Shown: positions 15,892-26,097 of the stretch, one piece after another
Numbering within the stretch: the stretch's first letter is position 1
Layout of the letters: each line of letters begins with the position of its first letter
DNA from: Acaryochloris marina S15
Lineage (GTDB): Bacteria > Cyanobacteriota > Cyanobacteriia > Thermosynechococcales > Thermosynechococcaceae
DNA: 32,000 nt
Assembly (NCBI RefSeq): GCF_018336915.1
Contig: NZ_CP064923.1
Location: 5,460,001-5,492,000 of the forward strand
Direction of reading: 5' to 3'
The notes under the pieces: generated by a model
Database searches by the model: none
What the model saw: the letters and a program-made list of their open reading frames with translations, nothing else
Told to the model about the DNA's origin: nothing
Position numbers and translations under genes: made by a program

Positions 15892-16497
15892 GTGAATACG
15901 CCTAGCCACGCGATTATCAACCTTGCCCTGCTCATGAATGTGACGGAGCAGCCAGCAGTGTTGGCCGTGACGGCGGGAGCCATTGCCCCGGATCTCCCCA
16001 TGTTTGTGTTTTATTTCTGGGTGAAGGGGATTCGGAAGTTACCAGAAGGCCAAATCTGGACGGAAGCTTACTATCATCCCTTTTGGCAAACCTGCATCGA
16101 TCTATGCCATTCCATTCCATTGGCGGGGCTAGCGGCTTGGGGCTGCTGGCAACTGGGCTGGATGCCTGCGGCCCTATTTTTTCTCAGCATGATTCTCCAC
16201 TCTTTAGGCGATTTGCCCGTTCATAATGACGATGCCCATAAGCATTTTCTACCGCTGAGTCAATATCGACTAATTAGTCCCCTGTCATATTGGGACCCGA
16301 AGCATTACGGTCGGCAAGTGGCGTTTGTAGAGATGCTGCTGGTGTTGGGGACTTCGGTATTGACGTTTCCAATCTTGGGTAATATTTGGGGCCAAGGGTT
16401 GGTGGTGTTGGTGAATGGGTTTTACTGGTTTACCTTTGGCTATACGTTTTTGCGGAGACAGCTTCCTAATTTGTTGTGTCGGGCGCGGAATGCTTGA
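15892..16497 (+). CDS. Integral-membrane, His-rich metal-dependent-hydrolase-like protein (YdjM/DUF4184-like; family uncertain)
   Basis: It has a GTG start, 5-6 hydrophobic spans and His motifs (TPSHAI, LCHSIP, ILHSLGDLPVHNDDAHKH). The family assignment is from pattern memory only. Confidence 0.5.
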   Translation: MNTPSHAIINLALLMNVTEQPAVLAVTAGAIAPDLPMFVFYFWVKGIRKLPEGQIWTEAYYHPFWQTCIDLCHSIPLAGLAAWGCWQLGWMPAALFFLSMILHSLGDLPVHNDDAHKHFLPLSQYRLISPLSYWDPKHYGRQVAFVEMLLVLGTSVLTFPILGNIWGQGLVVLVNGFYWFTFGYTFLRRQLPNLLCRARNA

Positions 16498-16500
16498 AGG

Positions 16501-18861
16501 TTAGGTTTCGTCGAAGGATAGGTTGGCGAAATGTTCTTGCAGGTAGCGATGGACGAAGACATAGCTGCCGCCTGTGCGATAGATAAATACGCAATCTTCG
16601 GCTTGTTGGAAAAAAGTGACGAAATTCCAAGGGATTTGCTTAGTTTGGCAGAGGACTAAACGCATTGACAAGTGTTGAGTACAGGGGTCTATTCCTTCGT
16701 TGTTGAGGATTAAAAAGAGTGGTAACACCATGAATAAGGCAATAATGAATCTCACTACAAATGGTTCTAGGAACAGAGGTAAAATATTTACCAGAGTAAA
16801 ACAAAGAACAATCATAAAAACAAGCGACACGATAACCTGTATCACTATCGTTTTTAAAGATCCCCAAATAACTTGATTAGGAAAAGTTCGATCTAGAATA
16901 TCGACTTTTAGCCCTCCAATCAGCTTGATACTTAGCCCTCCAATCAGCTTGATACTCTCCCCGAGAATCAATCCGAAAATTAGCCCGAGAATCAGGCCTC
17001 CAATCAGCCCGTAACTCTGCATGAAAAGCCCCCCGAAACTCAGCGCGTATGTCAGATAGCTTTCAAGGAGCTTCCAACTTCTTCGTCCCGTTTTGCGAGG
17101 CATTGGATTTTCTATAGCTTTTACTGAATACATCTTATCTCGCCTAACACTCAGCCCGAAAATCAATCCGATTAGCCCGAAAATTAGCCCAGAAATTAGT
17201 CCTCCAATTAGCCCAAAAACCCTTCCAATTAGCCCGAAAATTAGCCCGAGAATTAGCCCCCAAGCCAGCCCATAAAGCAGCCTATAAAGCCATTTAGTCC
17301 TTTCAGCTTCTACTAGATCCATCCCAACATACAGCCCTCCATACAGCCCCATTAGCCCTCCAAATAGCCCTCCGACAATACCTCCAAATAGCTCTCCGAC
17401 AATACCTCCAAATAGCCCGCAAATCAATCCGAAAATCAATCCGAAGATTAGCCCAAGAATCAGCCCAAAAAGCCATTTAGTCCTTGCTGTCTCCAGCCAA
17501 TCTTTGGGTTTCATTCGTTCGATCAAGAACTCTTTCCCCGCTCCCGTTTTCTTCGCTATTCCTTGCAGCCAGTGCAACATTTGTTGCTGTTCCGGCTCAG
17601 GTAAAGACCGCTGGGCAAACATTCGCTCAATATAACGATCAAACAGGAGTTTTAAGCGTTGGTCTTTAGGCAAATCCAGTAATTCCTGAGCTGGACGATT
17701 GCGATAGGCCAAAGTCAGAATCCATAGAAAAAGCGGCTTATTCACTAAGTCCCGTAAGGAGGGATCTGCCCCTAAAGCAGTTGCAATCCCTACTAACGCT
17801 TCCCCTCCCTCTTGTAAGTAATCATCTACCTGCTTTTCTGACAAAGGTTGAATATACACTGCTGCCTGAAACTCTTCTAAACGAGTGATCAAGGCTTGAT
17901 AGTCTACAATTCGGCAACACAGTGCGATTTCGATATTGCCAAACTTTTGCCGAAACTGATTCAATGCTTCCACACAAGCATCGCGATCTTGGGGTTTGAC
18001 TTCATCCAAACCATCCAGCAGCAAGGTCCATTTTTCCTGCTCCAGCCAAGTTTTTCCCACTTCTTTGCGAACTTGATATTGCTGCCATAACTCCTCCAGC
18101 AGCCACTGGGTAAAGGCCAGCGTTCCATCGTTAGGGAACTGCTGAGTGCCCCAAGCTGACAAATTCAACACAATCGGGATAGGCTGTTTTAGCTCTTGAA
18201 AATCAGTCGCTTCTAATAAATCTTGAGCCAGCTCCAAAAGCAAGGTTGTTTTCCCGGCACCCGGCTCCCCCAGCACCAACAACGTTCCGCCACCCCCCAA
18301 ATTAGCAAATCGATCCAACAGCCGCGTGCCAGGGGGCAACACCTGTTTCTCTTCTCCCGCCCTTTGCCACTCCATCCCCACCATCTCAGGCCGCTCTTCC
18401 AATCCCACTGCAATCCGAGCCTGCTCATACAGAGAGTTTTTCAAAACCCCATCAATCCATTTCACCCCCACCTTATCCATCAAGATTTGACGATTGTCTT
18501 GCCACCGGGCTTCATCCAATTCAGATGCTGTCAATATCGAGGGCTTGCGGACAAGCTGCACCACATCCACCACCATCATGCCCAGTAGCCCCACCAGCAC
18601 AACGCTATACAGCAAGCCAATCACTTTGGCAGTTGGGTTATCACTGCTAAAAGCAGCCATTGCCTCTGGAAAGACTCTGCCAATAAACCCCAACACGGCG
18701 GTTTCAACCACCAGCTTCAGCCATCGTCCCCATTTGGCTTTTTTCTGGTCAGCCGCAACTTGCCCCACCACCCAGCCCAACACCACCGGAATCAATACCG
18801 TGAACAGAGGCACCACAACCGTCTGAAAATTCGGATCACTCAGCAGTTTTTGAAGCATCAT
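16501..18861 (-). CDS. Membrane-embedded NACHT-family STAND NTPase with a C-terminal glycine-zipper transmembrane array
   Basis: Three N-terminal hydrophobic spans precede the NACHT core, which has Walker A LLVLGEPGAGKTTLLLELA and Walker B WTLLLDGLDEV. Then comes roughly 290 aa of GLIxGL/GGxxG hydrophobic repeats. The protein ends with FIYRTGGSYVFVHRYLQEHFA, a motif typical of the helical module after a NACHT core. I could not recognise any WD40, TPR or LRR repeats. Confidence 0.85.
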   Translation of the reverse strand: MMLQKLLSDPNFQTVVVPLFTVLIPVVLGWVVGQVAADQKKAKWGRWLKLVVETAVLGFIGRVFPEAMAAFSSDNPTAKVIGLLYSVVLVGLLGMMVVDVVQLVRKPSILTASELDEARWQDNRQILMDKVGVKWIDGVLKNSLYEQARIAVGLEERPEMVGMEWQRAGEEKQVLPPGTRLLDRFANLGGGGTLLVLGEPGAGKTTLLLELAQDLLEATDFQELKQPIPIVLNLSAWGTQQFPNDGTLAFTQWLLEELWQQYQVRKEVGKTWLEQEKWTLLLDGLDEVKPQDRDACVEALNQFRQKFGNIEIALCCRIVDYQALITRLEEFQAAVYIQPLSEKQVDDYLQEGGEALVGIATALGADPSLRDLVNKPLFLWILTLAYRNRPAQELLDLPKDQRLKLLFDRYIERMFAQRSLPEPEQQQMLHWLQGIAKKTGAGKEFLIERMKPKDWLETARTKWLFGLILGLIFGLIFGLICGLFGGIVGELFGGIVGGLFGGLMGLYGGLYVGMDLVEAERTKWLYRLLYGLAWGLILGLIFGLIGRVFGLIGGLISGLIFGLIGLIFGLSVRRDKMYSVKAIENPMPRKTGRRSWKLLESYLTYALSFGGLFMQSYGLIGGLILGLIFGLILGESIKLIGGLSIKLIGGLKVDILDRTFPNQVIWGSLKTIVIQVIVSLVFMIVLCFTLVNILPLFLEPFVVRFIIALFMVLPLFLILNNEGIDPCTQHLSMRLVLCQTKQIPWNFVTFFQQAEDCVFIYRTGGSYVFVHRYLQEHFANLSFDET
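16909..16956 (-). repeat. Perfect in-frame 24-nt tandem duplication inside the NACHT gene
   Basis: tagccctccaatcagcttgatact occurs twice back to back (16909-16932 and 16933-16956) with 24/24 identity. It encodes SIKLIGGL-SIKLIGGL. Confidence 0.95.
17155..17262 (-). repeat. Degenerate 12/9-nt periodic repeat encoding GLIF/GLI glycine-zipper units
   Basis: The plus strand reads agcccgaaaatc aatccgatt agcccgaaaatt agcccagaaatt agtcctccaatt agcccaaaaacc cttccaatt agcccgaaaatt agcccgagaatt. A 17-nt match, aaagccatttagtcctt, at 17286-17302 and 17469-17485 is 183 nt apart. That marks a duplicated 61-codon module beginning (E)RTKWL. Confidence 0.9.
17370..17417 (-). repeat. Second in-frame 24-nt tandem duplication (23/24 identical) inside the NACHT gene
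   Basis: ctccgacaatacctccaaatagcT (17370-17393) is followed by ctccgacaatacctccaaatagcC (17394-17417). Together they encode the GGIVGELF/GGIVGGLF units. Confidence 0.93.
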
Positions 18862-19192
18862 CGATATTTAAGAGAATAAGCAGCTTTAATCGAATATAAA
18901 CGAGAATAAAAGCAAAATCTATATAAAATATCCTTTCCAGCAAGAATTTTGCCGATTTACTCTCATTAAGATAAAGATCGATCTAAGTGCACGATCTTAT
19001 GCCCCATCAAACGTCTGGCCAACATTACCCTTGCCCCCTCCCCAGTACTCCAGATTTACCAACCAAGGTGAGTAGGCCCAAGATACGGGAACCCTAAATA
19101 TAAAGCGATGTAACGTTGGAACTTTTTATTGGTCAGCCAACCTGTTTCGCTCAGGTTCTACCCCATAATTTCCGACTCTATCCCCATCTCGC
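18862..19192. promoter_or_regulatory. Shared divergent promoter region between the NACHT gene and the first kinase/FGE gene
   Basis: This 331-bp AT-rich, ORF-free spacer is flanked by two outward-facing start codons (18861 minus, 19193 plus). No specific operator could be established. Confidence 0.55.
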
Positions 19193-21097
19193 ATGCTCCA
19201 TTGTCTGAACCCCACTTGCAGCAATCCTCAAAACCCAGACGGGCGTGACACCTGTCAACAATGCGGACAGCCCCTGATCGGCATATTGCGCAATCGATAT
19301 CGCATCATCAAACCACTGGGACAAGGTGGATTCGGCATCACTTATCTGGCCGAAGATATCGAGAGATTTAACGAGACTTGCGTGGTTAAACAATTAGCCT
19401 ATCAAAACCCTGATAGCCTCGCATCGCAGCAAAAAGTCCAAGACCTCTTTACCCAAGAAGCCCAACAGCTCTTTCAGCTCGGCACCCATCCACAAATCCC
19501 CAACCTGCTAGCCTACTTTCATGAAACAGGGCATCAATATTTAGTACAAGAATTTATCGAAGGTCCCAATCTTCTGCAAGAGCTGAAAAGCAACGGGGTA
19601 TATAGTGAATCCAAGCTGAGACACTTTCTCCGTAGCATCTTGCCCGTTCTAGACTATATCCATACCCAAGGCGTCATTCATCGCGATCTCAAACCCCACA
19701 ACATCATGTATCGCCCCGCCGATGATCGCTATTTCATCATCGACTTTGGCGTCACCAAGCAAGTCAATACTCAAGACCTCACAGGCACTGTATTAGGCAG
19801 CGAAGGATACGCCGCCTTCGAACAACTCCAATATGGTCAGGCCCATCCCGCGAGTGATTTATATAGTTTGGGGGTGAGCTGTTTTCACTTCTTGACAGGC
19901 CATGATCCAAGATCACTCCAGCTTCAGGTCGGGTATTCATGGACCCAAAACTGGCAGCAACATCTCCCAAAGCCCCTCAGCCCTGAGCTCACCTCAGTTC
20001 TTGACACCCTGCTCCAACTGCAACTAGAGAATCGCTATACCTCTGTTGCAGCAGTGCTCAAAGATTTAGCCCTCACCCAAACTTCTCCCCCCAAAAATCA
20101 AGTCGTGGCTCACAGCCAGCCACCTGCCCATCCACAACCCAAGCTTGAGTTAGCTCCAACCACTGACCGGACCGCCGTTATCTGGGAACCAACGAGCGAT
20201 ATCTCGACTTCATCCGCCTCTGCTGCGTTACACCCACCCTTACAAACCACACAGTTTGAAGTAGTAACCCTCGATGTAAGGGGGCAAACTCATTTGGTTC
20301 AGACCCTTACCGCCCAACAATATCTCGAAGAACTAGGAGACGGCATTTCCCTCTCGATGCTCGTTATCCCGGCCAGAAGTTTCTTCATGGGTTCATCGTC
20401 AACTGAAGTATCAAGACGCAAATTTGAAGGACCTCAACATCAAGTCTCAGTTGCCTCCTTCTACATGGGCCAATTCCTGATCACTCAAGCTCAATGGCAA
20501 GCCATAGCGGCTCTTCCCACCATCAACCATGACCTCTCCCCAGATCCATCGCAGTTCAAAGGAGCCGATCATCCAGTTGAGAGTATTTCCTGGCTAGATG
20601 CTGTCGAATGTTGTGACCGACTCACCCGCAAATTCAATCGACTCTATCGTCTACCCAGTGAAGCAGAGTGGGAATATGCTTGCCGAGCCAACACCACCAC
20701 CCCCTTCCACTGTGGCGAGACCCTCATCTCTGATCATGCTAATTTTCATGGCATGAAAACCTATCGATCCGCCCCTAGAGGTCAGTATCGCAACCAAACC
20801 ACTCCTGTAGGCAGTTTTCAAGCCAATGCTTTTGGCCTCCACGACATGCATGGCAATGTCTGGGAATGGTGCGCCGATGATTGGCATGCCAACTATCAAG
20901 GGGCTCCCATAGATGGCAGCATTTGGTTCACCCCAAACAACGATGCCATCGCAGGCAAGGCTCCCCATCCTTGGAGAGGTGGGTCTTGGTATGATGCCCC
21001 CGACAGCTGTCGGGCTGCCTATCGAACCTTTGCGGATGCCGACTTTAAGAGCAGTAATTTAGGCTTTCGAGTGGTCTCTCCAGTTCTATCCCCCTAA
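19193..21097 (+). CDS. Soluble Ser/Thr protein kinase with an N-terminal 4-Cys zinc ribbon and a C-terminal FGE-sulfatase (SUMF1-like) domain
   Basis: The zinc ribbon is CLNPTCSNPQNPDGRDTCQQCG. Hanks kinase motifs are intact: GQGGFG, VVKQL, HRDLKPHN (codons 163-170) and DFG (codons 184-186). A Pro-rich linker leads to the FGE-sulfatase fold (VIPARSFFMGS, HPVESISW, PSEAEWEYACR, HDMHGNVWEWC, RGGSW, SNLGFRVV). No TM segment is present. Confidence 0.9.
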   Translation: MLHCLNPTCSNPQNPDGRDTCQQCGQPLIGILRNRYRIIKPLGQGGFGITYLAEDIERFNETCVVKQLAYQNPDSLASQQKVQDLFTQEAQQLFQLGTHPQIPNLLAYFHETGHQYLVQEFIEGPNLLQELKSNGVYSESKLRHFLRSILPVLDYIHTQGVIHRDLKPHNIMYRPADDRYFIIDFGVTKQVNTQDLTGTVLGSEGYAAFEQLQYGQAHPASDLYSLGVSCFHFLTGHDPRSLQLQVGYSWTQNWQQHLPKPLSPELTSVLDTLLQLQLENRYTSVAAVLKDLALTQTSPPKNQVVAHSQPPAHPQPKLELAPTTDRTAVIWEPTSDISTSSASAALHPPLQTTQFEVVTLDVRGQTHLVQTLTAQQYLEELGDGISLSMLVIPARSFFMGSSSTEVSRRKFEGPQHQVSVASFYMGQFLITQAQWQAIAALPTINHDLSPDPSQFKGADHPVESISWLDAVECCDRLTRKFNRLYRLPSEAEWEYACRANTTTPFHCGETLISDHANFHGMKTYRSAPRGQYRNQTTPVGSFQANAFGLHDMHGNVWEWCADDWHANYQGAPIDGSIWFTPNNDAIAGKAPHPWRGGSWYDAPDSCRAAYRTFADADFKSSNLGFRVVSPVLSP

Positions 21098-21400
21098 AAA
21101 CCGAATTTGCTCAAGTTTTTTGCAGGGAAAAAGTCGATCGAGCAACCGTTATTAACACTAGTTCGATGGGTTTATGCCAATACTCACTATCAATACAGTA
21201 AGGTATTAGTAACAGAAATAGGGGGGGTAATTGAGTTCTGTGAGTGCCTCAATTTCTCTAGCAGACTAATGCTTCAAAACATGGTAGCTTCAATATTTCA
21301 AGTGTCTATTGGATAACACGATCAAAGTAGTACTTGAGCAATAAGCTATGTCAGTGTGCTGAGTGATTCTTTTCGATTGATTCCTATGAATATCTAAGCA

Positions 21401-23278
21401 ATGGTTTGTTGTCTCAATCCCAAGTGTGAGAAACCCCTCAACCCAGACACCAGTAAGTTTTGTCAACAGTGTGGTACAAAACTAACCCTGTTACGGCGAC
21501 GGTTTAAGATGGTTCGTCTGTTGGGTAAAGGTATGTTTGGCCATACGTATCTTGCAGAAGATCGAGATAATTTGCAGGAGCCCTGCATTGTCAAACAGCT
21601 AATTTGTCAAGCCCAGGGAACGGATGCCAGCCAGACGGTTGTTGAACCATTTTTACAAGAGGCAGAACAACTCAGACGGCTGAAAAAAAACCAACATATT
21701 CCCAGCATTTTAGCTTACTTCGAAGAAAATTATATTCCCTATTTAGTCCAGGAATATATCGACGGCCAAGACTTGCAACAAGTCATTGAGAATCAGGGTG
21801 CCTTCAGCGAGAATCAAGTCCGGGCCTTGTTACTAGAGCTCTTGCCGGTCTTACAGACGATCCATGATCAAGGGGTGATTCATCGGGACTTGAAACCCGC
21901 TCACATCATGCGTCAGCATTCAGATAGCAAGCTGATTCTGGTGGGGTTTTGTGTCTCCAAGCAACTCAGTTTATCTCAGTTACAGCAAACCGATAGCGTT
22001 CGAGAGAATACCAGCTACGCACCACCAGAAGTCTTTGCCGTCGATAAAGCTCGTCCCGGCAGCGATCTCTATAGCCTAGGTGCCACCTGCGTCCATTTAT
22101 TAACGGGAGTTGCTCCCCATGCTTTACCCATCCAAGGTGGAGAAGTATGGGTCGAACACTGGCAACAGCATCTTCCCCAGCCCTTGAGTGCTGAATTAAA
22201 GCCTGTGCTGGAGAAGTTACTCCGCACAGACCTAGCGGAGCGATATACTTCCGCCTTAGAAGTGCTCAGAGAAGTGCGCGGTTTTGCCAAAGCAACCTCC
22301 CGCCCCCTGCCCAAAATACCCGCCGTTCGAGCAGCCCAGACCTCTGGTCAGACAGCCCCACAAGCAGTCAGATCTCAGCCCAAGGCCCCGGCCCAGCCCA
22401 CCAAACTGCAGCCTAAACCCAAATCTTCCATCCCTTCCTTCCAAGCGGAAGTCGCCCAGGTCGATACCAAAGGCCAAGTGGTGAGTCGCCAATTTCATCC
22501 GATTGGCCACATCACCGAGGATCTCGGTAAGGATGTCACCCTGGAGTTGGCGCAGATTCCGGCAGGCCGCTTTTCCATGGGCTCGCCCCCTAGCGAGCAG
22601 CATCGGCAGCAGACCGAAAGTCCCCAGCATATTGTGTCTATCCCAGAATTTTATTTAAGTCGCTATCCCATCACTCAGGTCCAATGGCGTTTGGTGGCCG
22701 CCTTACCCGCAGTCAAGCGCGAACTGGATGATTCTCCGTCTCACTTTACGGGCGATGATCGCCCTGTCGAAAGCGTCTCTTGGTTTGATGTGGTCGAATT
22801 CTGTAACCGACTCTCCTTGTTAACTGGGAAGGACTATCACCTCCCTAGTGAATCTGCTTGGGAATATTCCTGCCGCGCCGCTAGTAACACCCCCTTTGCC
22901 TTTGGCGAAACCCTCAACACAGAACTGGCCAACTATGATGGCACAGCAGCCTATGGAGCTGGACCGACAGGCAATTTTCGCCAGCAAACCACCCGAGTGG
23001 GCAAATTCCCGGCCAATCCCTATGGGTTATCCGATATGCATGGCAATGTCTGGGAATGGTGTGCAGACCATTGGCATGGCAACTATGGCAATGCCCCAGT
23101 AGACGGCAGCGTCTGGCAAGATCAATACTTCTTTGCCTGTGTACTGAGGGGAGGGGCCTGGAATACCCAAGCCGCGAGCTGTCGTTCCGCCTCTCGCATT
23201 TGGGAAGCGGCCTCTGAACAAAGCAATCATATTGGGTTTCGGGTTGCTTGTACCTTAGTGAAACCAGCCAGCTCATAA
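21401..23278 (+). CDS. Paralogous zinc-ribbon / kinase-like / FGE-sulfatase protein; kinase domain predicted catalytically degenerate
   Basis: It has the same architecture as the upstream gene: CLNPKCEKPLNPDTSKFCQQCG, GKGMFG, IVKQL, and an FGE fold with IPAGRFSMGS, RPVESVSW, PSESAWEYSCR, SDMHGNVWEWC, RGGAW and NHIGFRVA. However, the catalytic loop reads HRDLKPAH, so Asn is replaced by His at codon 168. The DFG motif reads GFC at codons 182-184. Confidence 0.88.
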   Translation: MVCCLNPKCEKPLNPDTSKFCQQCGTKLTLLRRRFKMVRLLGKGMFGHTYLAEDRDNLQEPCIVKQLICQAQGTDASQTVVEPFLQEAEQLRRLKKNQHIPSILAYFEENYIPYLVQEYIDGQDLQQVIENQGAFSENQVRALLLELLPVLQTIHDQGVIHRDLKPAHIMRQHSDSKLILVGFCVSKQLSLSQLQQTDSVRENTSYAPPEVFAVDKARPGSDLYSLGATCVHLLTGVAPHALPIQGGEVWVEHWQQHLPQPLSAELKPVLEKLLRTDLAERYTSALEVLREVRGFAKATSRPLPKIPAVRAAQTSGQTAPQAVRSQPKAPAQPTKLQPKPKSSIPSFQAEVAQVDTKGQVVSRQFHPIGHITEDLGKDVTLELAQIPAGRFSMGSPPSEQHRQQTESPQHIVSIPEFYLSRYPITQVQWRLVAALPAVKRELDDSPSHFTGDDRPVESVSWFDVVEFCNRLSLLTGKDYHLPSESAWEYSCRAASNTPFAFGETLNTELANYDGTAAYGAGPTGNFRQQTTRVGKFPANPYGLSDMHGNVWEWCADHWHGNYGNAPVDGSVWQDQYFFACVLRGGAWNTQAASCRSASRIWEAASEQSNHIGFRVACTLVKPASS

Positions 23279-23355
23279 GCGCTTCAAGTCAGAGGGCAAA
23301 AAAACCGCAATAATAATGTGAATGCTCATTTTCATAAGGTGCAACATCCTGCCGG

Positions 23356-26097
23356 ATGGAAGTTCTCTCCGTTACGCTGAAAAACTTTAAGGCCCATCGC
23401 GATCGCTACTATGAATTCCGACCGGGGGCCAATGCCATTTGTGGTGAAAATGGGTCAGGGAAGACCAGCATCCTAGAAGCCATTGCCTGGGTTTTATTTG
23501 ATCACAGCGAGTACAAGCGAGCCGAACTAATCACCGTCGGGGCCAAAAGTGCCCAAGCCATCGTCAGCTTTATATCCCACTTGGATGGGCGAATCTACGA
23601 GGTGCGTCGCTGTACTAGTCGGGGCTATGAGGTTCACGACCCCCAGCTCAACCGCAAGCTAGAACTGAAAAAACTCGATGATGTCCGCTGCTGGCTCTGT
23701 GAACATTTGGGGGTGGGGGTCCACACGGAACTGGCCAAATTGTTTGCAGAAACCATTGGCATTCCCCAGGGCACCTTTACAGTGGATTTTCTCAAATCAG
23801 CGGGCGATCGCAAAAAGGTATTCGATCCCATTCTGAAGGTGGAAGAGTATAAACAGGCTTACGATCAGGCCCAAAAATTAACCAGTTATGCCCAGGCCCA
23901 GGTCCAACAGCTAGAGCAAAAATTACAAAGCTACGACCAGCAACTCGAAGGCTGGGAAGCGCTTAAGCAACAGAAGCTAGAGCTAGCTAAAACCTTGACT
24001 CAGCAGATGGCCCAGATGCAAACCCTGGCTCAGCAGTTGGGTGAGATTCGGACTGAACTCAAGGATTTAAAGACCCAAGACCAAGCCATCCAAACCCTAG
24101 ACAAACAGGTCCAGCATCTCCAAACCCAATGGACCAGTAAACAGGAAATTCTCCAGCTCTTAGAGGAGAATTGGCAGCAGGCAGACCAAGCCGTCCAGAT
24201 TTGTCGTCAGCATCGGCCTCAATTTCAGGCCTATCAAGCGGCCCAAGAGACCCTCAAGGCCCTCGCTCAACAACAAAAACAACGACAGCAACTGCTGCAA
24301 GAACGCGATCGCATCCAAAATACCCTCCGCGATCAGCAAGTCCTACTCTCCCAAAACCAAGGCCAACTCTCCACCTTTGCCAAGATGGACGCAGAACTCC
24401 AGGACTGGCAAACCAAAGTTCCGCAACAACAGCAGCTCGACCAAGAAAAGACCACTTGCCAACAGGCCCTCCAAACCCTAGTCTCCGACCAAAAACACCT
24501 ACAGCGACTGCAAGAGCAAATCCACAAACAGCAGCAGAGTTGGGAAACCCTCAGCCAGACCATTCGCCAACTGGTCGCCCTAGAACCACAAGTTCAGGCC
24601 ATTCCTAACTTCGAAGCCCAGCAGCAGAAGATTCAAGAACGGCTGGGACGAATTGCCGCCGCCCAGCAATTTGCCACAGAATTACAGACATTACTGACCG
24701 AGGCTGAACCCCAACAACAGCACTATCAGCAGCAAGTAGACACAGCGAAAGATCTGCTCAGTCGTTCCACCCTGAACCCAGCCCAGACCACTCAACTCGC
24801 CACCATTTTGGACCAAGGGGCTGCCCTCACCCACCAGATTATTCAGCAGCTCCAAACAGCTTTTGCCGACATTATTGATCCCCAGACCGTCACCAACCTC
24901 AAGCAACAGCTTCGGCAGATAAAAACCCAACTCAAAGCCGCCCAAAAAGCCCAAACCCAATGGTTGATGCTAGAGGCCCAACAGCATCAGCTAACGGAGC
25001 TAGAGCAAGGGATGACGTCACTGCAGCAAGAGTGCGATCGCATCCAGGTCACCCTCAACCAAGAGCCCCAGCTCCAGAGCCAACTAGCACAGCTCAATAC
25101 CCAGCTAACGGCACTCAGCGACCCCCAGGGCCATGTCCGCATCTTGCAGCAGCAGCTTCAAGGAGCCACCCAGCTAGAAGCAGAGATCACTCGCCTTCAA
25201 CAGGCCTGTCAAGGTCATCAGCAGTCCCTCACAACCTTTGAAACCCAGGTCGAAGCCTTGGGAGATCTAGAAGCCCAAGTCGATGCCCAACAGCAGATCC
25301 AGCAAGAGCATCAGGAGGTGTATCAGCGCTATTTACGCCATCGGAATCAGGCCAATACCTTTAAAGACCTAGATCAGCAACGCCAAGGTGCGATCGCTAC
25401 CCAAACCCAACTCCAAACCCAGTTAACGGGTGCTCAAGCCCAATGGCAGGAAAAGCTCAAAGATCATAATCCTGAGCGGCTAGCTGAAGTGAGTCACACC
25501 TATGAACAATTGCAGCGACACCATGACCAGCTCCAGGGGGGACTAGCCCCCCAACAGGCTCAGCTGCAATATCTCGATCAGCAATTGGAAGCCAAGCAAG
25601 CCCTCGCCCAAGAGCGCGATCAGATCTGGGTGACCTTAGAGGATAAGCGCCAAATCTCACAGTTCGTTATCGATGCTCGCAACGTCTACAAGCAAAGCGG
25701 TCCTCGAATCACCAAATTTTACCTGACAGAAATTTCTTGGGAGGCGGATCGGCTCTATCGGGAGCTGCTCGATCGGCCTGATGTGGCTTTACAGTGGACT
25801 GAAGATTACGAAATTCAGGTACAAGAGCAGGGCCATTGGCGTAGCTTCAAAAGCCTGTCGGGGGGAGAGCAGATGTGTGCTGCTTTAGCCGTGCGCCTAG
25901 CCTTGCTGAAAGTCTTAGTCGATATCAATATTGCGTTTTTCGACGAGCCCACAACGAACATGGATGAACTGCGTCGTCGACAGTTGGCCGAAGCCTTGGG
26001 GCATCTCAAATCCTTCCATCAGCTGTTTGTGATCAGTCATGACGACACTTTTGAGAGCGTTACAGAAAATATTATTCGGGTAGAGAGAGCGAGTTAA
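23356..26097 (+). CDS. Rad50/SbcC-like SMC-family ABC ATPase with a very long Gln-rich coiled coil
   Basis: The N-terminal head is LKNFKAHRD...ICGENGSGKTSILEAI (Walker A), followed by about 600 aa of Q-rich heptad-like sequence. The C-terminal head has SLSGGEQMCAALAVRLAL (signature), IAFFDEPTTNMD (Walker B/D-loop) and FVISHDD (H-loop). There is no CxxC in the coiled-coil region and no nuclease gene next to it. Confidence 0.85.
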   Translation: MEVLSVTLKNFKAHRDRYYEFRPGANAICGENGSGKTSILEAIAWVLFDHSEYKRAELITVGAKSAQAIVSFISHLDGRIYEVRRCTSRGYEVHDPQLNRKLELKKLDDVRCWLCEHLGVGVHTELAKLFAETIGIPQGTFTVDFLKSAGDRKKVFDPILKVEEYKQAYDQAQKLTSYAQAQVQQLEQKLQSYDQQLEGWEALKQQKLELAKTLTQQMAQMQTLAQQLGEIRTELKDLKTQDQAIQTLDKQVQHLQTQWTSKQEILQLLEENWQQADQAVQICRQHRPQFQAYQAAQETLKALAQQQKQRQQLLQERDRIQNTLRDQQVLLSQNQGQLSTFAKMDAELQDWQTKVPQQQQLDQEKTTCQQALQTLVSDQKHLQRLQEQIHKQQQSWETLSQTIRQLVALEPQVQAIPNFEAQQQKIQERLGRIAAAQQFATELQTLLTEAEPQQQHYQQQVDTAKDLLSRSTLNPAQTTQLATILDQGAALTHQIIQQLQTAFADIIDPQTVTNLKQQLRQIKTQLKAAQKAQTQWLMLEAQQHQLTELEQGMTSLQQECDRIQVTLNQEPQLQSQLAQLNTQLTALSDPQGHVRILQQQLQGATQLEAEITRLQQACQGHQQSLTTFETQVEALGDLEAQVDAQQQIQQEHQEVYQRYLRHRNQANTFKDLDQQRQGAIATQTQLQTQLTGAQAQWQEKLKDHNPERLAEVSHTYEQLQRHHDQLQGGLAPQQAQLQYLDQQLEAKQALAQERDQIWVTLEDKRQISQFVIDARNVYKQSGPRITKFYLTEISWEADRLYRELLDRPDVALQWTEDYEIQVQEQGHWRSFKSLSGGEQMCAALAVRLALLKVLVDINIAFFDEPTTNMDELRRRQLAEALGHLKSFHQLFVISHDDTFESVTENIIRVERAS

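What the first reader, a model, noticed from the sequence alone, without database searches (positions are those of the whole stretch)
21881..21952. The second kinase/FGE paralog has lost both Mg-coordinating kinase residues (predicted pseudokinase)
Paralog 1 has the canonical HRDLKPHN catalytic loop (Asn at codon 170) and DFG (codons 184-186). Paralog 2 reads HRDLKPAH, with His at codon 168 (21902-21904). It reads GFC where DFG should be (21944-21952). The glycine loop (GKGMFG), the VAIK-type Lys (IVKQL) and the HRD Asp are retained. In Hanks kinases the catalytic-loop Asn and the DFG Asp bind the two Mg ions of Mg-ATP. Losing both is a classical pseudokinase signature. An active kinase next to a degenerate paralog suggests a kinase/pseudokinase regulatory or scaffold pair.
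Basis: partly seen in the sequence, partly recalled or inferred. Interest (0 to 1): 0.6.

Follow-up and report, generated by a model that had tools for sequence, protein, structure and literature searches.

The report
Conserved pseudokinase in Acaryochloris kinase/FGE-like gene
The second of two neighbouring kinase genes in this Acaryochloris (cyanobacterium) window has lost both magnesium-binding residues, and every relative in the genus keeps that loss under strong selection, so it is a working "dead" kinase, a known kind of signalling protein seen here in a new bacterial lineage.

Summary
Paralog 2 (21401-23278, +, 625 aa) reads HRDLKPAH, with His168 at 21902-21904, and GFC (182-184, 21944-21952). 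Paralog 1 and 110/110 other family members read ...N and DFG. Alignments to StkP, S. aureus PknB and the family profile confirm the residue correspondence.

The change is neither an error nor decay:
- All orthologs found carry His, Gly and Cys, with synonymous codon turnover. There are 11 protein clusters and about 10 genomic loci, all Acaryochloris, down to 68-70% identity.
- dN/dS of the kinase domain is about 0.05, against about 0.28 for the linker and about 0.10 for paralog 1.
- AlphaFold gives an intact PknB-like fold.

The clade has also lost the P+1-loop Gly-Thr, the activation-loop Gly-Thr and one glycine-loop Gly. It keeps the beta3 Lys, the alphaC Glu and the HRD Asp. This resembles STRADalpha (Asn to His, DFG to GLR) and CASK (Asn to Cys, DFG to GFG).

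The "kinase/pseudokinase pair" idea is only partly supported. Paralog 1 always sits upstream of paralog 2. Paralog 2 occurs without it in four diverged Acaryochloris genomes, has its own conserved upstream region, and is not a recent duplicate of paralog 1.

The "FGE" domain is PvdO-like and lacks one catalytic Cys.

Verdict: a real, lineage-specific bacterial pseudokinase; a new member of a known kind; moderate interest.

The parts
21401..23278 (+). Paralog 2 gene: 4-Cys prefix + degenerate Hanks-type kinase domain + linker + PvdO/FGE-like domain (625 aa). This is the predicted pseudokinase.
   Evidence: ORF; Pfam Pkinase 5e-34 and FGE-sulfatase 4.5e-48; 99% identical protein annotated in Acaryochloris marina NIES-2412.
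21407..21484 (+). 4-Cys prefix / zinc-ribbon (residues 3-28, CCLNPKCEKPLNPDTSKFCQQCG).
   Evidence: NCBIfam NF045510 4Cys_prefix_kin, 41.2 bits against a cut-off of 24; weak Pfam zinc-ribbon hit.
21506..22261 (+). Kinase-like domain (residues 36-287).
   Evidence: Pfam PF00069. AlphaFold2 mean pLDDT 84.5 and pTM 0.84. Best structural matches are the PknB and PknA kinase domains. dN/dS 0.048.
21524..21541 (+). Glycine-rich loop GKGMFG (residues 42-47). The three GxGxxG glycines are kept in the window. The family's fourth-position Gly is replaced by Met.
   Evidence: Position 45 is M/V/I in 12/12 clade members and G in 105/110 others. The first Gly is Ala in L013 and Ser in L004.
21593..21595 (+). 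Beta3 (VAIK-type) Lys65, retained.
   Evidence: K in 12/12 clade members and 110/110 others.
21659..21661 (+). AlphaC Glu87, retained in the window.
   Evidence: E in 11/12 clade members; Gly in P0002/L010.
21881..21904 (+). Catalytic loop HRDLKPAH. The HRD Asp163 is retained. The Mg-binding Asn is replaced by His168 (21902-21904).
   Evidence: The His codon is CAC or CAT across orthologs.
21944..21952 (+). GFC in place of DFG: Mg-binding Asp to Gly182, and Gly to Cys184.
   Evidence: Gly codons are GGG/GGT/GGC and Cys codons are TGT/TGC across orthologs.
21992..22030 (+). Activation segment and P+1 loop, DSVRENTSYAPPE (residues 198-210). The family's two Gly-Thr pairs are lost and the APE Glu is kept.
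   Evidence: Positions 198-199: G-T in 104/110 others, D/E-S/H/Y/R in the clade. Positions 202-203: G in 108/110 and T/S in 109/110 others, E/D/A-N/D/H/Q in the clade. Residues 187-199 have pLDDT below 50.
22550..23248 (+). PvdO/FGE-like (PF03781) domain, residues 384-616. Thr589 (23165-23167) sits where human FGE has Cys336. Cys594 (23180-23182) corresponds to Cys341.
   Evidence: Pfam. Best solved relative is PvdO 5HHA, 8.3e-38. The alignment to human FGE shows the incomplete Cys pair. dN/dS 0.035-0.06 for the window-L007 and window-L010 pairs, whose dS is about 1.4 or less.
21098..21400 (+). Spacer between the two paralogs. About the last 230 nt form a conserved upstream region of paralog 2 (inferred promoter or 5' leader).
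   Evidence: The region aligns across Acaryochloris loci, including L010 and L008, which lack paralog 1. No Rfam match. No convincing consensus promoter or terminator.
19193..21097 (+). Paralog 1: same architecture with all canonical catalytic residues (HRDLKPHN at 19679-19702; DFG at 19742-19750). Predicted active kinase.
   Evidence: All its orthologs are canonical.
23356..26097 (+). Context: Rad50/SbcC-like coiled-coil ATPase, 77 nt downstream of paralog 2. It follows paralog 2 in most but not all Acaryochloris loci.
   Evidence: Pfam SMC_N, AAA_23 and SbcC_Walker_B. NCBIfam Rad50 and SbcC hits are below cut-offs. Synteny. The gene is absent after paralog 2 in L001.
16501..18861 (-). Context: NACHT NTPase with a Gly/Leu-rich hydrophobic C-terminal half, divergent from paralog 1. 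It is variably present between strains.
   Evidence: Pfam NACHT 2.7e-10. Presence or absence across loci.

Best explanation
Paralog 2 is a functional, selectively maintained pseudokinase confined to the genus Acaryochloris. It belongs to the cyanobacterial family of "4-Cys prefix + Hanks kinase + PvdO/FGE-like domain" proteins.

**Shown:**
- In the ancestor of the clade the two Mg2+ ligands were replaced (Asn to His168, Asp to Gly182), together with the DFG Gly (to Cys184).
- The glycine loop, activation loop and P+1 loop also degenerated.
- The kinase fold, the beta3 Lys, the alphaC Glu and the HRD Asp stayed, and the whole domain is under strong purifying selection.

**Inferred:**
- The domain no longer catalyses ordinary Mg-ATP phosphotransfer.
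- It probably still binds nucleotide without a cation, as STRADalpha does with the same Asn-to-His and Asp-to-Gly changes.
- It then works as a non-catalytic signalling module: a conformational switch, scaffold or allosteric partner for active kinases of the same family, coupled to whatever its PvdO-like C-terminal domain binds.
- The adjacent active paralog 1 is one likely partner in A. marina-type genomes, but it is not required. The pseudokinase is older or more widespread than that adjacency and has its own upstream region.
For: - Residue identity and register.
- Fixation in the clade: H/G/C in 12/12 clade members against N/D/G in 110/110 others. The same motifs are found in all genomic orthologs. 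Synonymous codon variation occurs at all three codons.
- Purifying selection: kinase-domain dN/dS is 0.048 (window-L007, dS 0.49; window-L010, dS 1.12). The linker gives about 0.28-0.30 and the paralog-1 kinase domain about 0.10.
- Intact fold: pLDDT 84.5, with PknB and PknA as top structural matches.
- Additional loss of the P+1-loop and activation-loop Gly-Thr pairs and of Gly-loop Gly45. Sporadic further erosion: alphaC Glu to Gly in L010, and the first Gly-loop Gly to Ala or Ser in L013 and L004.
- Precedent: STRADalpha has His200 for the Asn and GLR for DFG. It binds ATP without Mg2+ and allosterically activates LKB1 (PMC2686265; PMC4718504).
- Independence from paralog 1.
Against: - No biochemical data exist. 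Inactivity, nucleotide binding and any partner are all inferred.
- CASK shows that a kinase keeping the HRD Asp, the beta3 Lys and the Gly loop while lacking both Mg ligands can still phosphorylate (PMC4718504; CASK sequence confirmed).
- The HRD Asp, Lys65 and (11/12) Glu87 are conserved in the clade. That would be unexpected if catalysis were completely irrelevant, although pseudokinases that bind ATP structurally also keep such residues.
- dS is saturated for the more distant pairs, so only two or three comparisons give reliable dN/dS.
- The four loci without paralog 1 come from MAGs. Paralog 1 could be encoded elsewhere in those genomes.
Confidence: 0.6

Rival explanations
1. Atypical but active kinase, CASK-like. 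Paralog 2 transfers phosphate slowly without Mg2+, or with another cofactor, using the retained HRD Asp, beta3 Lys and Gly loop.
For: HRD Asp163 and Lys65 are invariant and Glu87 is nearly so in the clade. CASK has HRDVKPHC...GGFG. It is reported active, with cations inhibiting it (PMC4718504).
Against: CASK keeps the P+1 loop GTPHFMAPE. The paralog-2 clade has lost that Gly-Thr, and the replacing residues vary (N/D/H/Q), so substrate positioning looks unconstrained. The family's activation-loop Gly-Thr, which I take to be its phospho-acceptor site (not tested), is lost. Some orthologs have also lost the alphaC Glu or the first Gly-loop Gly.
Confidence: 0.2
2. Dedicated two-gene kinase/pseudokinase pair. 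Paralog 2 exists to regulate or scaffold the adjacent paralog 1 specifically.
For: In every context where a paralog-1 ortholog was found, a paralog-2 ortholog follows it after about 300 nt (window, L007, L001, L086/L087, L088, L089).
Against: Paralog-2 orthologs occur with other upstream neighbours in L008, L009, L010 and L013. The conserved upstream region of paralog 2 persists without paralog 1. Paralog 1 is not its closest active relative. The two evolve at different rates (78% against 93% amino-acid identity between the window and MBIC11017).
Confidence: 0.2
3. Part of an anti-phage defence locus (NACHT NTPase + kinase + pseudokinase + Rad50/LmuB-like ATPase) sitting in a variable genomic spot.
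For: PADLOC PD-T4-6 models match residues 1-317 of both paralogs (1e-98 and 1e-91). There are also mad6 hits for the paralogs and LmuB (1.5e-30) and mad3 (2.7e-28) hits for the downstream ATPase. NACHT and paralog 1 are variably present between strains.
Against: All NCBIfam defence models are far below their cut-offs (MADS6 128 bits against 460). The NACHT hits cover the P-loop only. The kinase hits are what any Hanks kinase gives. The family is widespread in cyanobacteria, with thousands of members. The paralog 2 / SbcC-like adjacency is not universal.
Confidence: 0.07
4. Decaying or neutral relic: a kinase gene that lost activity and is drifting, or a sequencing artefact.
For: Loss of catalytic residues is what a dying gene would show. 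A few orthologs have extra losses.
Against: The 625-codon ORF is intact. Orthologs are kept across the genus. dN/dS is about 0.05 in both globular domains against about 0.28 in the linker. Identical replacements persist with synonymous turnover. The sequence is seen in many independent assemblies.
Confidence: 0.02

Closest known systems
STRADalpha (human STE20-related pseudokinase, activator of LKB1)
   Same: The catalytic-loop Asn is replaced by His (His200). The DFG Asp is replaced by Gly (GLR). A Gly of the glycine loop is replaced by Met. STRADalpha binds ATP without Mg2+ and acts allosterically on an active kinase (PMC2686265).
   Different: STRADalpha also lacks the beta3 Lys (Arg100) and the HRD Asp (Ser195), both of which paralog 2 keeps. 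It has Arg at DFG+2, which contacts the beta-phosphate, where paralog 2 has Cys. It is an unrelated eukaryotic lineage with no FGE-like domain. The changes are convergent, not homologous.
CASK CaM-kinase domain (Mg2+-independent atypical kinase)
   Same: CASK keeps the HRD Asp, the beta3 Lys and the glycine loop while both Mg ligands are replaced (HRDVKPHC, GGFG, PMC4718504).
   Different: In CASK the Asn is replaced by Cys, not His. The DFG Gly and the P+1 loop GT are intact in CASK and lost in paralog 2. It is a eukaryotic CaMK family member. Its activity has been demonstrated, whereas nothing has been tested for paralog 2.
Described bacterial pseudokinase families (ActPs1-3, GLW, CP1, DYD, DLHK)
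   Same: These are conserved bacterial Hanks-type domains with degraded catalytic motifs and unknown, presumably non-catalytic roles (bioRxiv 10.1101/2025.01.12.632604; PMC12599244).
   Different: Substitution of the beta3 Lys is reported in all seven families (in 34% of CP1 and 60% of DYD members, and in all members of the other five), and the HRD Asp is lost in six of the seven. Paralog 2 keeps both and loses only the metal ligands. CP1 is linked to a COG3899 ATPase domain, not an FGE-like domain. Paralog 2 is a small genus-level clade nested in an otherwise canonical cyanobacterial family.
Cyanobacterial 4-Cys-prefix kinase / FGE-sulfatase-domain proteins (annotated [quoted passage not shown])
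   Same: Same three-part architecture and clear homology along the whole length.
   Different: At least 214 of the 221 other family members retrieved keep HRD...N...DFG; most of the other seven are pattern-matching artefacts. Only the Acaryochloris clade has H...GFC. Among the 150 nearest 50%-identity representatives only the clade's own representative has it.
PvdO (Pseudomonas pyoverdine maturation protein, FGE fold without FGE active site)
   Same: It is the best solved relative of the C-terminal domain (8.3e-38 with the single sequence, 2.7e-54 with the family profile). Both lack a complete FGE Cys pair.
   Different: PvdO is a stand-alone periplasmic protein. The NCBIfam PvdO model scores 148 bits against a cut-off of 500. 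Paralog 2 keeps the second Cys (Cys594).

Membership tests
Hanks-type (eukaryotic-like) protein kinase fold, Pfam PF00069 | Significant match to the Pkinase profile over the whole domain, and a bilobal kinase fold | tested here: met
   118.3 bits against a gathering score of 31.7, profile positions 2-256/263. The AlphaFold model matches PknB and PknA.
Pseudokinase (sequence-based definition) | Absence of at least one of the beta3 Lys, the HRD Asp and the DFG Asp | tested here: met
   The DFG Asp is replaced by Gly182 in all 12 clade members. Definition as used in bioRxiv 10.1101/2025.01.12.632604 and PMC4718504.
Pseudokinase (functional sense) | No phosphotransfer activity | not testable with these tools
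   Needs in vitro kinase assays. The CASK precedent shows that sequence alone cannot decide.
Canonical active Ser/Thr kinase | Both Mg2+ ligands present (catalytic-loop Asn, DFG Asp), plus the P+1-loop Gly-Thr/Ser | tested here: not met
   His168, Gly182, and E-N at positions 202-203.
CASK-type Mg-independent kinase | HRD Asp, beta3 Lys and Gly loop retained, with both Mg ligands replaced | tested here: met
   This is a resemblance in pattern only. Paralog 2 is not a CaMK-family homologue, and its closest solved kinases are bacterial PknB and StkP.
CASK-type Mg-independent kinase | Intact substrate-binding P+1 loop, and demonstrated cation-independent activity | tested here: not met
   The P+1 Gly-Thr is lost, while CASK has GTPHFMAPE. 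Activity is not testable here.
STRADalpha-like ATP-binding pseudokinase | His in place of the Asn, Gly in place of the DFG Asp, and a basic residue at DFG+2 replacing the cation | tested here: inconclusive
   The first two features are met. DFG+2 is Cys, not Arg. Nucleotide binding has not been tested.
Formylglycine-generating enzyme (FGE/SUMF1) | FGE-sulfatase fold (PF03781) | tested here: met
   164.6 bits against a cut-off of 23.3.
Formylglycine-generating enzyme (FGE/SUMF1) | Catalytic Cys pair (human Cys336 and Cys341). That this pair is required for FGE activity is from my own knowledge of FGE, not from a paper read here. | tested here: not met
   Thr589 aligns with Cys336; only Cys594 (equivalent to Cys341) is present. 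Paralog 1 has Asp601 and Cys606.
PvdO (NCBIfam NF051459) | Score above the equivalog cut-off | tested here: not met
   148.2 bits against 500.
Bacterial pseudokinase families ActPs1-3, GLW, CP1, DYD, DLHK | Beta3 Lys substituted (in all members of five families, and in 34% of CP1 and 60% of DYD members), plus family-specific partner domains (for example COG3899 for CP1) | tested here: not met
   Lys65 is invariant. The domains are 4-Cys prefix + PvdO-like. Family features taken. No profile comparison with those families was possible.
4-Cys prefix kinases (NCBIfam NF045510) | N-terminal 4-Cys motif above the cut-off | tested here: met
   41.2 bits against 24.
Anti-phage kinases (PD-T4-6 / MADS MAD6) | Curated model above its cut-off, and a defence gene context | tested here: not met
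   NCBIfam MADS6 scores 128 bits against 460. The PADLOC PD-T4-6 hits have no curated cut-off and cover only the generic kinase plus the 4-Cys prefix.

The most novel reading that the evidence does not exclude
His168 and Cys184 are invariant despite synonymous codon turnover. They may not be mere losses. Together they could build a new imidazole/thiolate site in the former Mg-ATP cleft. That would make paralog 2 a transition-metal- or redox-gated nucleotide switch, or an atypical kinase using a soft metal, which controls active 4-Cys kinases. It would be a bacterial counterpart of the STRAD/LKB1 logic with a sensor built into the dead active site.
Probability: 0.08. Interest if true: 0.65.

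Novelty: new member of a known kind. Interest (0 to 1): 0.35.

Why it matters
Bacterial pseudokinases are recognised but almost untouched experimentally. The families described so far are mostly degraded in the Lys and HRD motifs.

This clade is a clean natural experiment. The fold is intact and the Lys, Glu and HRD Asp are retained. Only the metal ligands and the substrate and activation loops are lost. The protein is strongly constrained, and a canonical paralog of the same architecture sits next door in a cultivable organism, A. marina MBIC11017. That makes it a convenient system to ask whether STRAD- or CASK-type cation-independent nucleotide binding and allosteric kinase control exist in bacteria.

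It also corrects current database names ([quoted passage not shown], "nonheme iron enzyme"). For this protein neither activity is likely.

The practical importance is modest. The clade is confined to one genus and no phenotype is known.

Tried and rejected
- **Shifted register.** I looked for an alternative alignment that would supply another Asn or Asp. The single-sequence and profile alignments to solved kinases leave no room for one.
- **Recent tandem duplication.** Rejected. The two paralogs share 46% kinase-domain identity, and other family members are closer to paralog 2. The trees are neighbour-joining only, so deep branching is not resolved.
- **Operon signals.** The consensus promoter and terminator scan of 18800-23500 found no more sites than shuffled sequence does. 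It is uninformative for cyanobacterial promoters.
- **Rfam search of the conserved spacer.** Nothing found.
- **Defence-system reading.** PADLOC hits exist, but the NCBIfam curated models are far below their cut-offs. I kept it only as a low-probability rival.
- **The same H...GFC pattern elsewhere.** None among 221 other family members or the 150 nearest 50%-identity representatives. Other degenerate kinase domains do occur there, mostly in multi-kinase-domain proteins, with different substitutions (HRN, GFG/GFS).
- **CASK papers.** PMC3640377 and PMC3286871 are not held. I confirmed the CASK motifs from PDB sequences instead.
- **His168-Cys184 geometry.** This could not be measured, because the structure tool returns no coordinates.
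- **PknB-type dimer interface.** Conservation of the N-lobe dimer residues (Arg34 and Leu58 as equivalents of PknB Arg10 and Leu33) was only eyeballed, not tested, and is not used as evidence.
Full report
**1. What is in the sequence**

Two same-strand ORFs lie 303 nt apart: paralog 1 (19193-21097, 634 aa) and paralog 2 (21401-23278, 625 aa). Both match Pfam Pkinase (143.9 and 118.3 bits; cut-off 31.7) and FGE-sulfatase (171.9 and 164.6 bits; cut-off 23.3). Both carry an N-terminal 4-Cys prefix, NCBIfam NF045510, above its cut-off. They are 43% identical end to end.

- Paralog 2 codons 161-168 (21881-21904) read HRDLKPAH, with His168 at 21902-21904.
- Paralog 2 codons 182-184 (21944-21952) read GFC.
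- Paralog 1 has HRDLKPHN (Asn170) and DFG (184-186).

The closest database protein is 99% identical and comes from Acaryochloris marina NIES-2412. The A. marina MBIC11017 chromosome carries the same locus at 93% protein identity.

**2. Residue correspondence**

phmmer alignments of paralog 2 to solved StkP and S. aureus PknB chains place HRDLKPAH on HRDLKPQN / HRDIKPQN and "vgF" on "tDF" / "fDF" without gaps. A profile built from 27 family members aligns the family's HRDlKPeN and iDFG to the same positions of those kinases.

**3. Is it an accident of this genome?**

No. Of the 120 best homologues of paralog 2, eleven clusters at 68-99% identity form its orthologous clade. All read HRDL[K/R]PAH and VGFC. 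All other homologues read N and DFG.

In a column-by-column comparison the three positions are H, G and C in 12/12 clade members and N, D and G in 110/110 others. Apart from a conservative Ile-for-Leu change at position 103, no other column combines an invariant outgroup residue with a different fixed clade residue.

The same motifs are present in every genomic ortholog retrieved:
- MBIC11017 (L007).
- GCA_000238775 (L087).
- Four Acaryochloris MAGs (L008, L009, L010, L013).
- Several metagenome contigs (L001, L004, L086, L088, L089).

Across these loci the His codon is CAC or CAT, the Gly codon is GGG, GGT or GGC, and the Cys codon is TGT or TGC. The amino acids have therefore been held through synonymous turnover.

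Pooling the top hits of both paralog searches, at least 214 of the 221 family members outside the clade are canonical (most of the other seven are pattern-matching artefacts), and H/GFC occurs only in the clade. In an exhaustive search of 1.84 billion 50%-identity representatives, the only one of the best 150 with this pattern is the clade's own representative. Every ortholog whose source organism is named comes from Acaryochloris.

**4. Is the gene alive?**

Pairwise Nei-Gojobori estimates:

| Region | Pair | dN/dS | dS |
|---|---|---|---|
| Paralog 2 kinase domain | window vs MBIC11017 | 0.048 | 0.49 |
| Paralog 2 kinase domain | window vs L010 | 0.048 | 1.12 |
| Paralog 2 PvdO/FGE-like domain | same two pairs | 0.035-0.059 | 0.62-1.40 |
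| Paralog 2 inter-domain linker | same two pairs | 0.28-0.30 | 0.42-1.44 |
| Paralog 1 kinase domain | window vs MBIC11017 | about 0.10 | 0.96 |

More distant pairs are saturated in dS and I do not rely on them.

The degenerate kinase domain is thus at least as constrained as that of its "active" neighbour. Within the clade it is as conserved as the C-terminal domain (75-91% against 73-87% identity). AlphaFold2 with a 27-sequence alignment gives a confident bilobal kinase model (mean pLDDT 84.5, pTM 0.84). Only the beta3-alphaC loop and residues 187-199 of the activation loop are poorly defined. Foldseek ranks the M. tuberculosis PknB and PknA and S. aureus PknB kinase domains first. The relic or pseudogene reading is rejected.

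**5.

Relative to the family, the clade has also lost:
- The fourth-position Gly of the GxGGFG loop (Met, Val or Ile against Gly in 105/110).
- The activation-loop Gly-Thr (positions 198-199; G and T in 104/110 others).
- The P+1-loop Gly-Thr/Ser that precedes the APE motif (positions 202-203; G in 108/110 and T/S in 109/110 others, against E/D/A and N/D/H/Q in the clade).
- The Gln after APE (position 211).

The replacing residues in the two loops vary within the clade, which points to relaxed constraint there.

Individual lineages have gone further. The alphaC Glu is Gly in L010/P0002. The first Gly-loop Gly is Ala in L013 and Ser in L004/P0011.

By contrast Lys65, His161, Arg162, Asp163, Phe183 and the APE Glu210 are invariant.

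**6. Mechanistic reading**

The pattern matches two well-studied eukaryotic cases.
- **STRADalpha** has His200 for the Asn, GLR for DFG and a Met in the glycine loop. It binds ATP without Mg2+, with His200 and Arg215 standing in for the cation. It adopts a pseudo-active conformation that allosterically activates LKB1 (PMC2686265; PMC4718504).
- **CASK** keeps the HRD Asp, the Lys and the Gly loop, and has Cys for the Asn and GFG for DFG (sequence confirmed). It is a slow, Mg2+-independent kinase that cations inhibit (PMC4718504).

Paralog 2 combines STRAD's Asn-to-His and Asp-to-Gly changes with CASK's retained HRD Asp and Lys. Unlike CASK it has lost the P+1 Gly-Thr, and it has no basic residue at DFG+2.

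My best estimate, with a confidence of about 0.6:
- It does not catalyse ordinary Mg-ATP phosphotransfer.
- It probably still binds nucleotide without a cation.
- It functions non-catalytically as a switch, scaffold or allosteric partner of active family kinases.
- Its input comes through the PvdO-like domain.

The Mg-ligand loss, conservation, selection and fold are shown. Inactivity, nucleotide binding and partnership are inferred. A CASK-like residual activity remains a serious rival (about 0.2).

**7. The "pair" with paralog 1**

Wherever a paralog-1 ortholog was found (seven clusters at 75% identity or more), a paralog-2 ortholog follows it about 300 nt downstream. This holds in the window, L007, L001, L086/L087, L088 and L089.

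The reverse does not hold. Paralog-2 orthologs have other upstream neighbours in four loci:
- L008: the NACHT gene.
- L010: the 201-aa membrane protein.
- L009: a 330-aa ORF on the opposite strand (it looked carbonic-anhydrase-like to me; not tested).
- L013: two ORFs that I read by eye as a transposase and a cupin (not tested).

About 230 nt upstream of paralog 2 are conserved across loci, including L010 and L008, which lack paralog 1. Paralog 2 therefore appears to carry its own regulatory region.

Neighbour-joining trees show the paralog-2 clade as a long-stemmed monophyletic group. Paralog 1 (46% kinase-domain identity) is no closer to it than several other family members (up to 52%).

So paralog 1 is a plausible partner in A. 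marina-type genomes, but the pseudokinase is not an appendage of it. The four loci without paralog 1 come from MAGs, so a paralog-1 copy elsewhere in those genomes cannot be excluded.

**8. The C-terminal domain**

The best solved relative is PvdO (5HHA), at 8.3e-38 with the single sequence and 2.7e-54 with the family profile. In the alignment to human FGE, Thr589 of paralog 2 (Asp601 of paralog 1) occupies the position of catalytic Cys336. Only the Cys341 equivalent is kept (Cys594 / Cys606). Neither paralog is therefore expected to be a formylglycine-generating enzyme. That FGE needs both cysteines is from my own knowledge of FGE. Calling the proteins "kinase/FGE" is an architecture label, not a function.

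**9. Comparison with what is known**

Two recent surveys describe seven bacterial pseudokinase families: ActPs1-3, GLW, CP1, DYD and DLHK. Substitution of the beta3 Lys is reported in all seven (in 34% of CP1 and 60% of DYD members, and in all members of the other five), and the HRD Asp is lost in six of the seven. CP1, the one with cyanobacterial members, is linked to a COG3899 ATPase domain. Paralog 2 fits none of these. It is a genus-level clade nested inside a canonical cyanobacterial family.

Full-text searches for Acaryochloris plus pseudokinase, and for FGE-sulfatase plus pseudokinase, found no description of it.

Degenerate kinase domains are nevertheless common among relatives. Several multi-kinase-domain proteins among the nearest representatives have HRN and GFG/GFS-type motifs.

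I therefore class it as a new member of a known kind. Public annotation currently calls it a [quoted passage not shown] or "SUMF1/EgtB/PvdO family nonheme iron enzyme". Both names are probably misleading for this protein.

**10. Context**

The stretch between the 201-aa membrane protein (15892-16497) and paralog 2 is variable among strains:

| Locus | Between the membrane protein and paralog 2 |
|---|---|
| window, L007, L089 | NACHT + paralog 1 |
| L087 | paralog 1 only |
| L008 | NACHT only |
| L010 | neither |
| L088 | NACHT + methyltransferase + paralog 1 |

A Rad50/SbcC-like ATPase follows paralog 2 in most loci but not in L001. PADLOC gives PD-T4-6 and mad6 hits for the kinases and LmuB and mad3 hits for the ATPase. 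The curated NCBIfam defence models are far below their cut-offs. I treat a defence role as a low-probability rival (about 0.07).

**11. Verdict**

The pseudokinase call is sound and now much better founded. The specific kinase/pseudokinase pair is possible but not required.
- Interest is moderate (0.35). This is a clean, testable bacterial example of STRAD/CASK-type active-site remodelling, confined to one genus, with no known phenotype.

Noticed in passing
window 21170-21400 (upstream of paralog 2): About 230 nt of non-coding sequence upstream of paralog 2 is conserved across Acaryochloris loci, including two (L010, L008) that lack paralog 1. There is no Rfam match. It could be a promoter plus a long 5' leader or a regulatory element.
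   Followed up: partly
window 15892-21400; L007, L008, L010, L087, L088, L089: The interval between the 201-aa membrane protein and paralog 2 is a variable spot. The NACHT gene and paralog 1 (plus a methyltransferase in L088) are present in different combinations in different strains, while the flanks stay syntenic.
   Followed up: partly
window 16501-18861 (-): The NACHT NTPase (786 aa) has an unusual C-terminal half made of repeated Gly/Leu/Ile-rich hydrophobic stretches (GLILGLIFGLI...) that look like multiple transmembrane segments. The middle of the protein (residues about 464-652) is not conserved between strains.
   Followed up: no
window 19193-21097 vs 21401-23278; L007: Between this strain and A. 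marina MBIC11017 the canonical paralog 1 has diverged much more (78% amino-acid identity, dS 0.91) than the adjacent pseudokinase (93%, dS 0.51). Its best database match is a different strain ('Moss Beach', 97%) from that of paralog 2 (NIES-2412, 99%). This suggests recombination or exchange of paralog 1.
   Followed up: no
window 23356-26097 (+): A Gln-rich coiled-coil Rad50/SbcC-like ATPase (913 aa) starts 77 nt after paralog 2. No SbcD/Mre11-type nuclease gene lies beside it. It scores below every NCBIfam cut-off and also hits the PADLOC LmuB and mad3 models.
   Followed up: partly
proteins P0233, P0248, P0270, P0284, P0327, P0330, P0333 (relatives): Several relatives carry two or three kinase domains in one chain, of which one or more are degenerate (HRN, GFG, GFS, GFV, Lys lost). 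P0233 (1396 aa) has three degenerate domains. These are intramolecular kinase/pseudokinase arrangements in the same broad family.
   Followed up: partly
L004, L005, L006 (P0011 contigs): Three independent assemblies carrying the most diverged ortholog all end within about 300 nt upstream of the gene. This suggests a repeat or strain-variable junction there. The gene caller also started the protein at an internal Met, missing the 4-Cys prefix.
   Followed up: no
L013 631-1758: An ORF that I read by eye as a transposase (not tested against any family library) lies just upstream of the paralog-2 ortholog in Acaryochloris sp. CRU_2_0. This is consistent with rearrangement at this junction.
   Followed up: no
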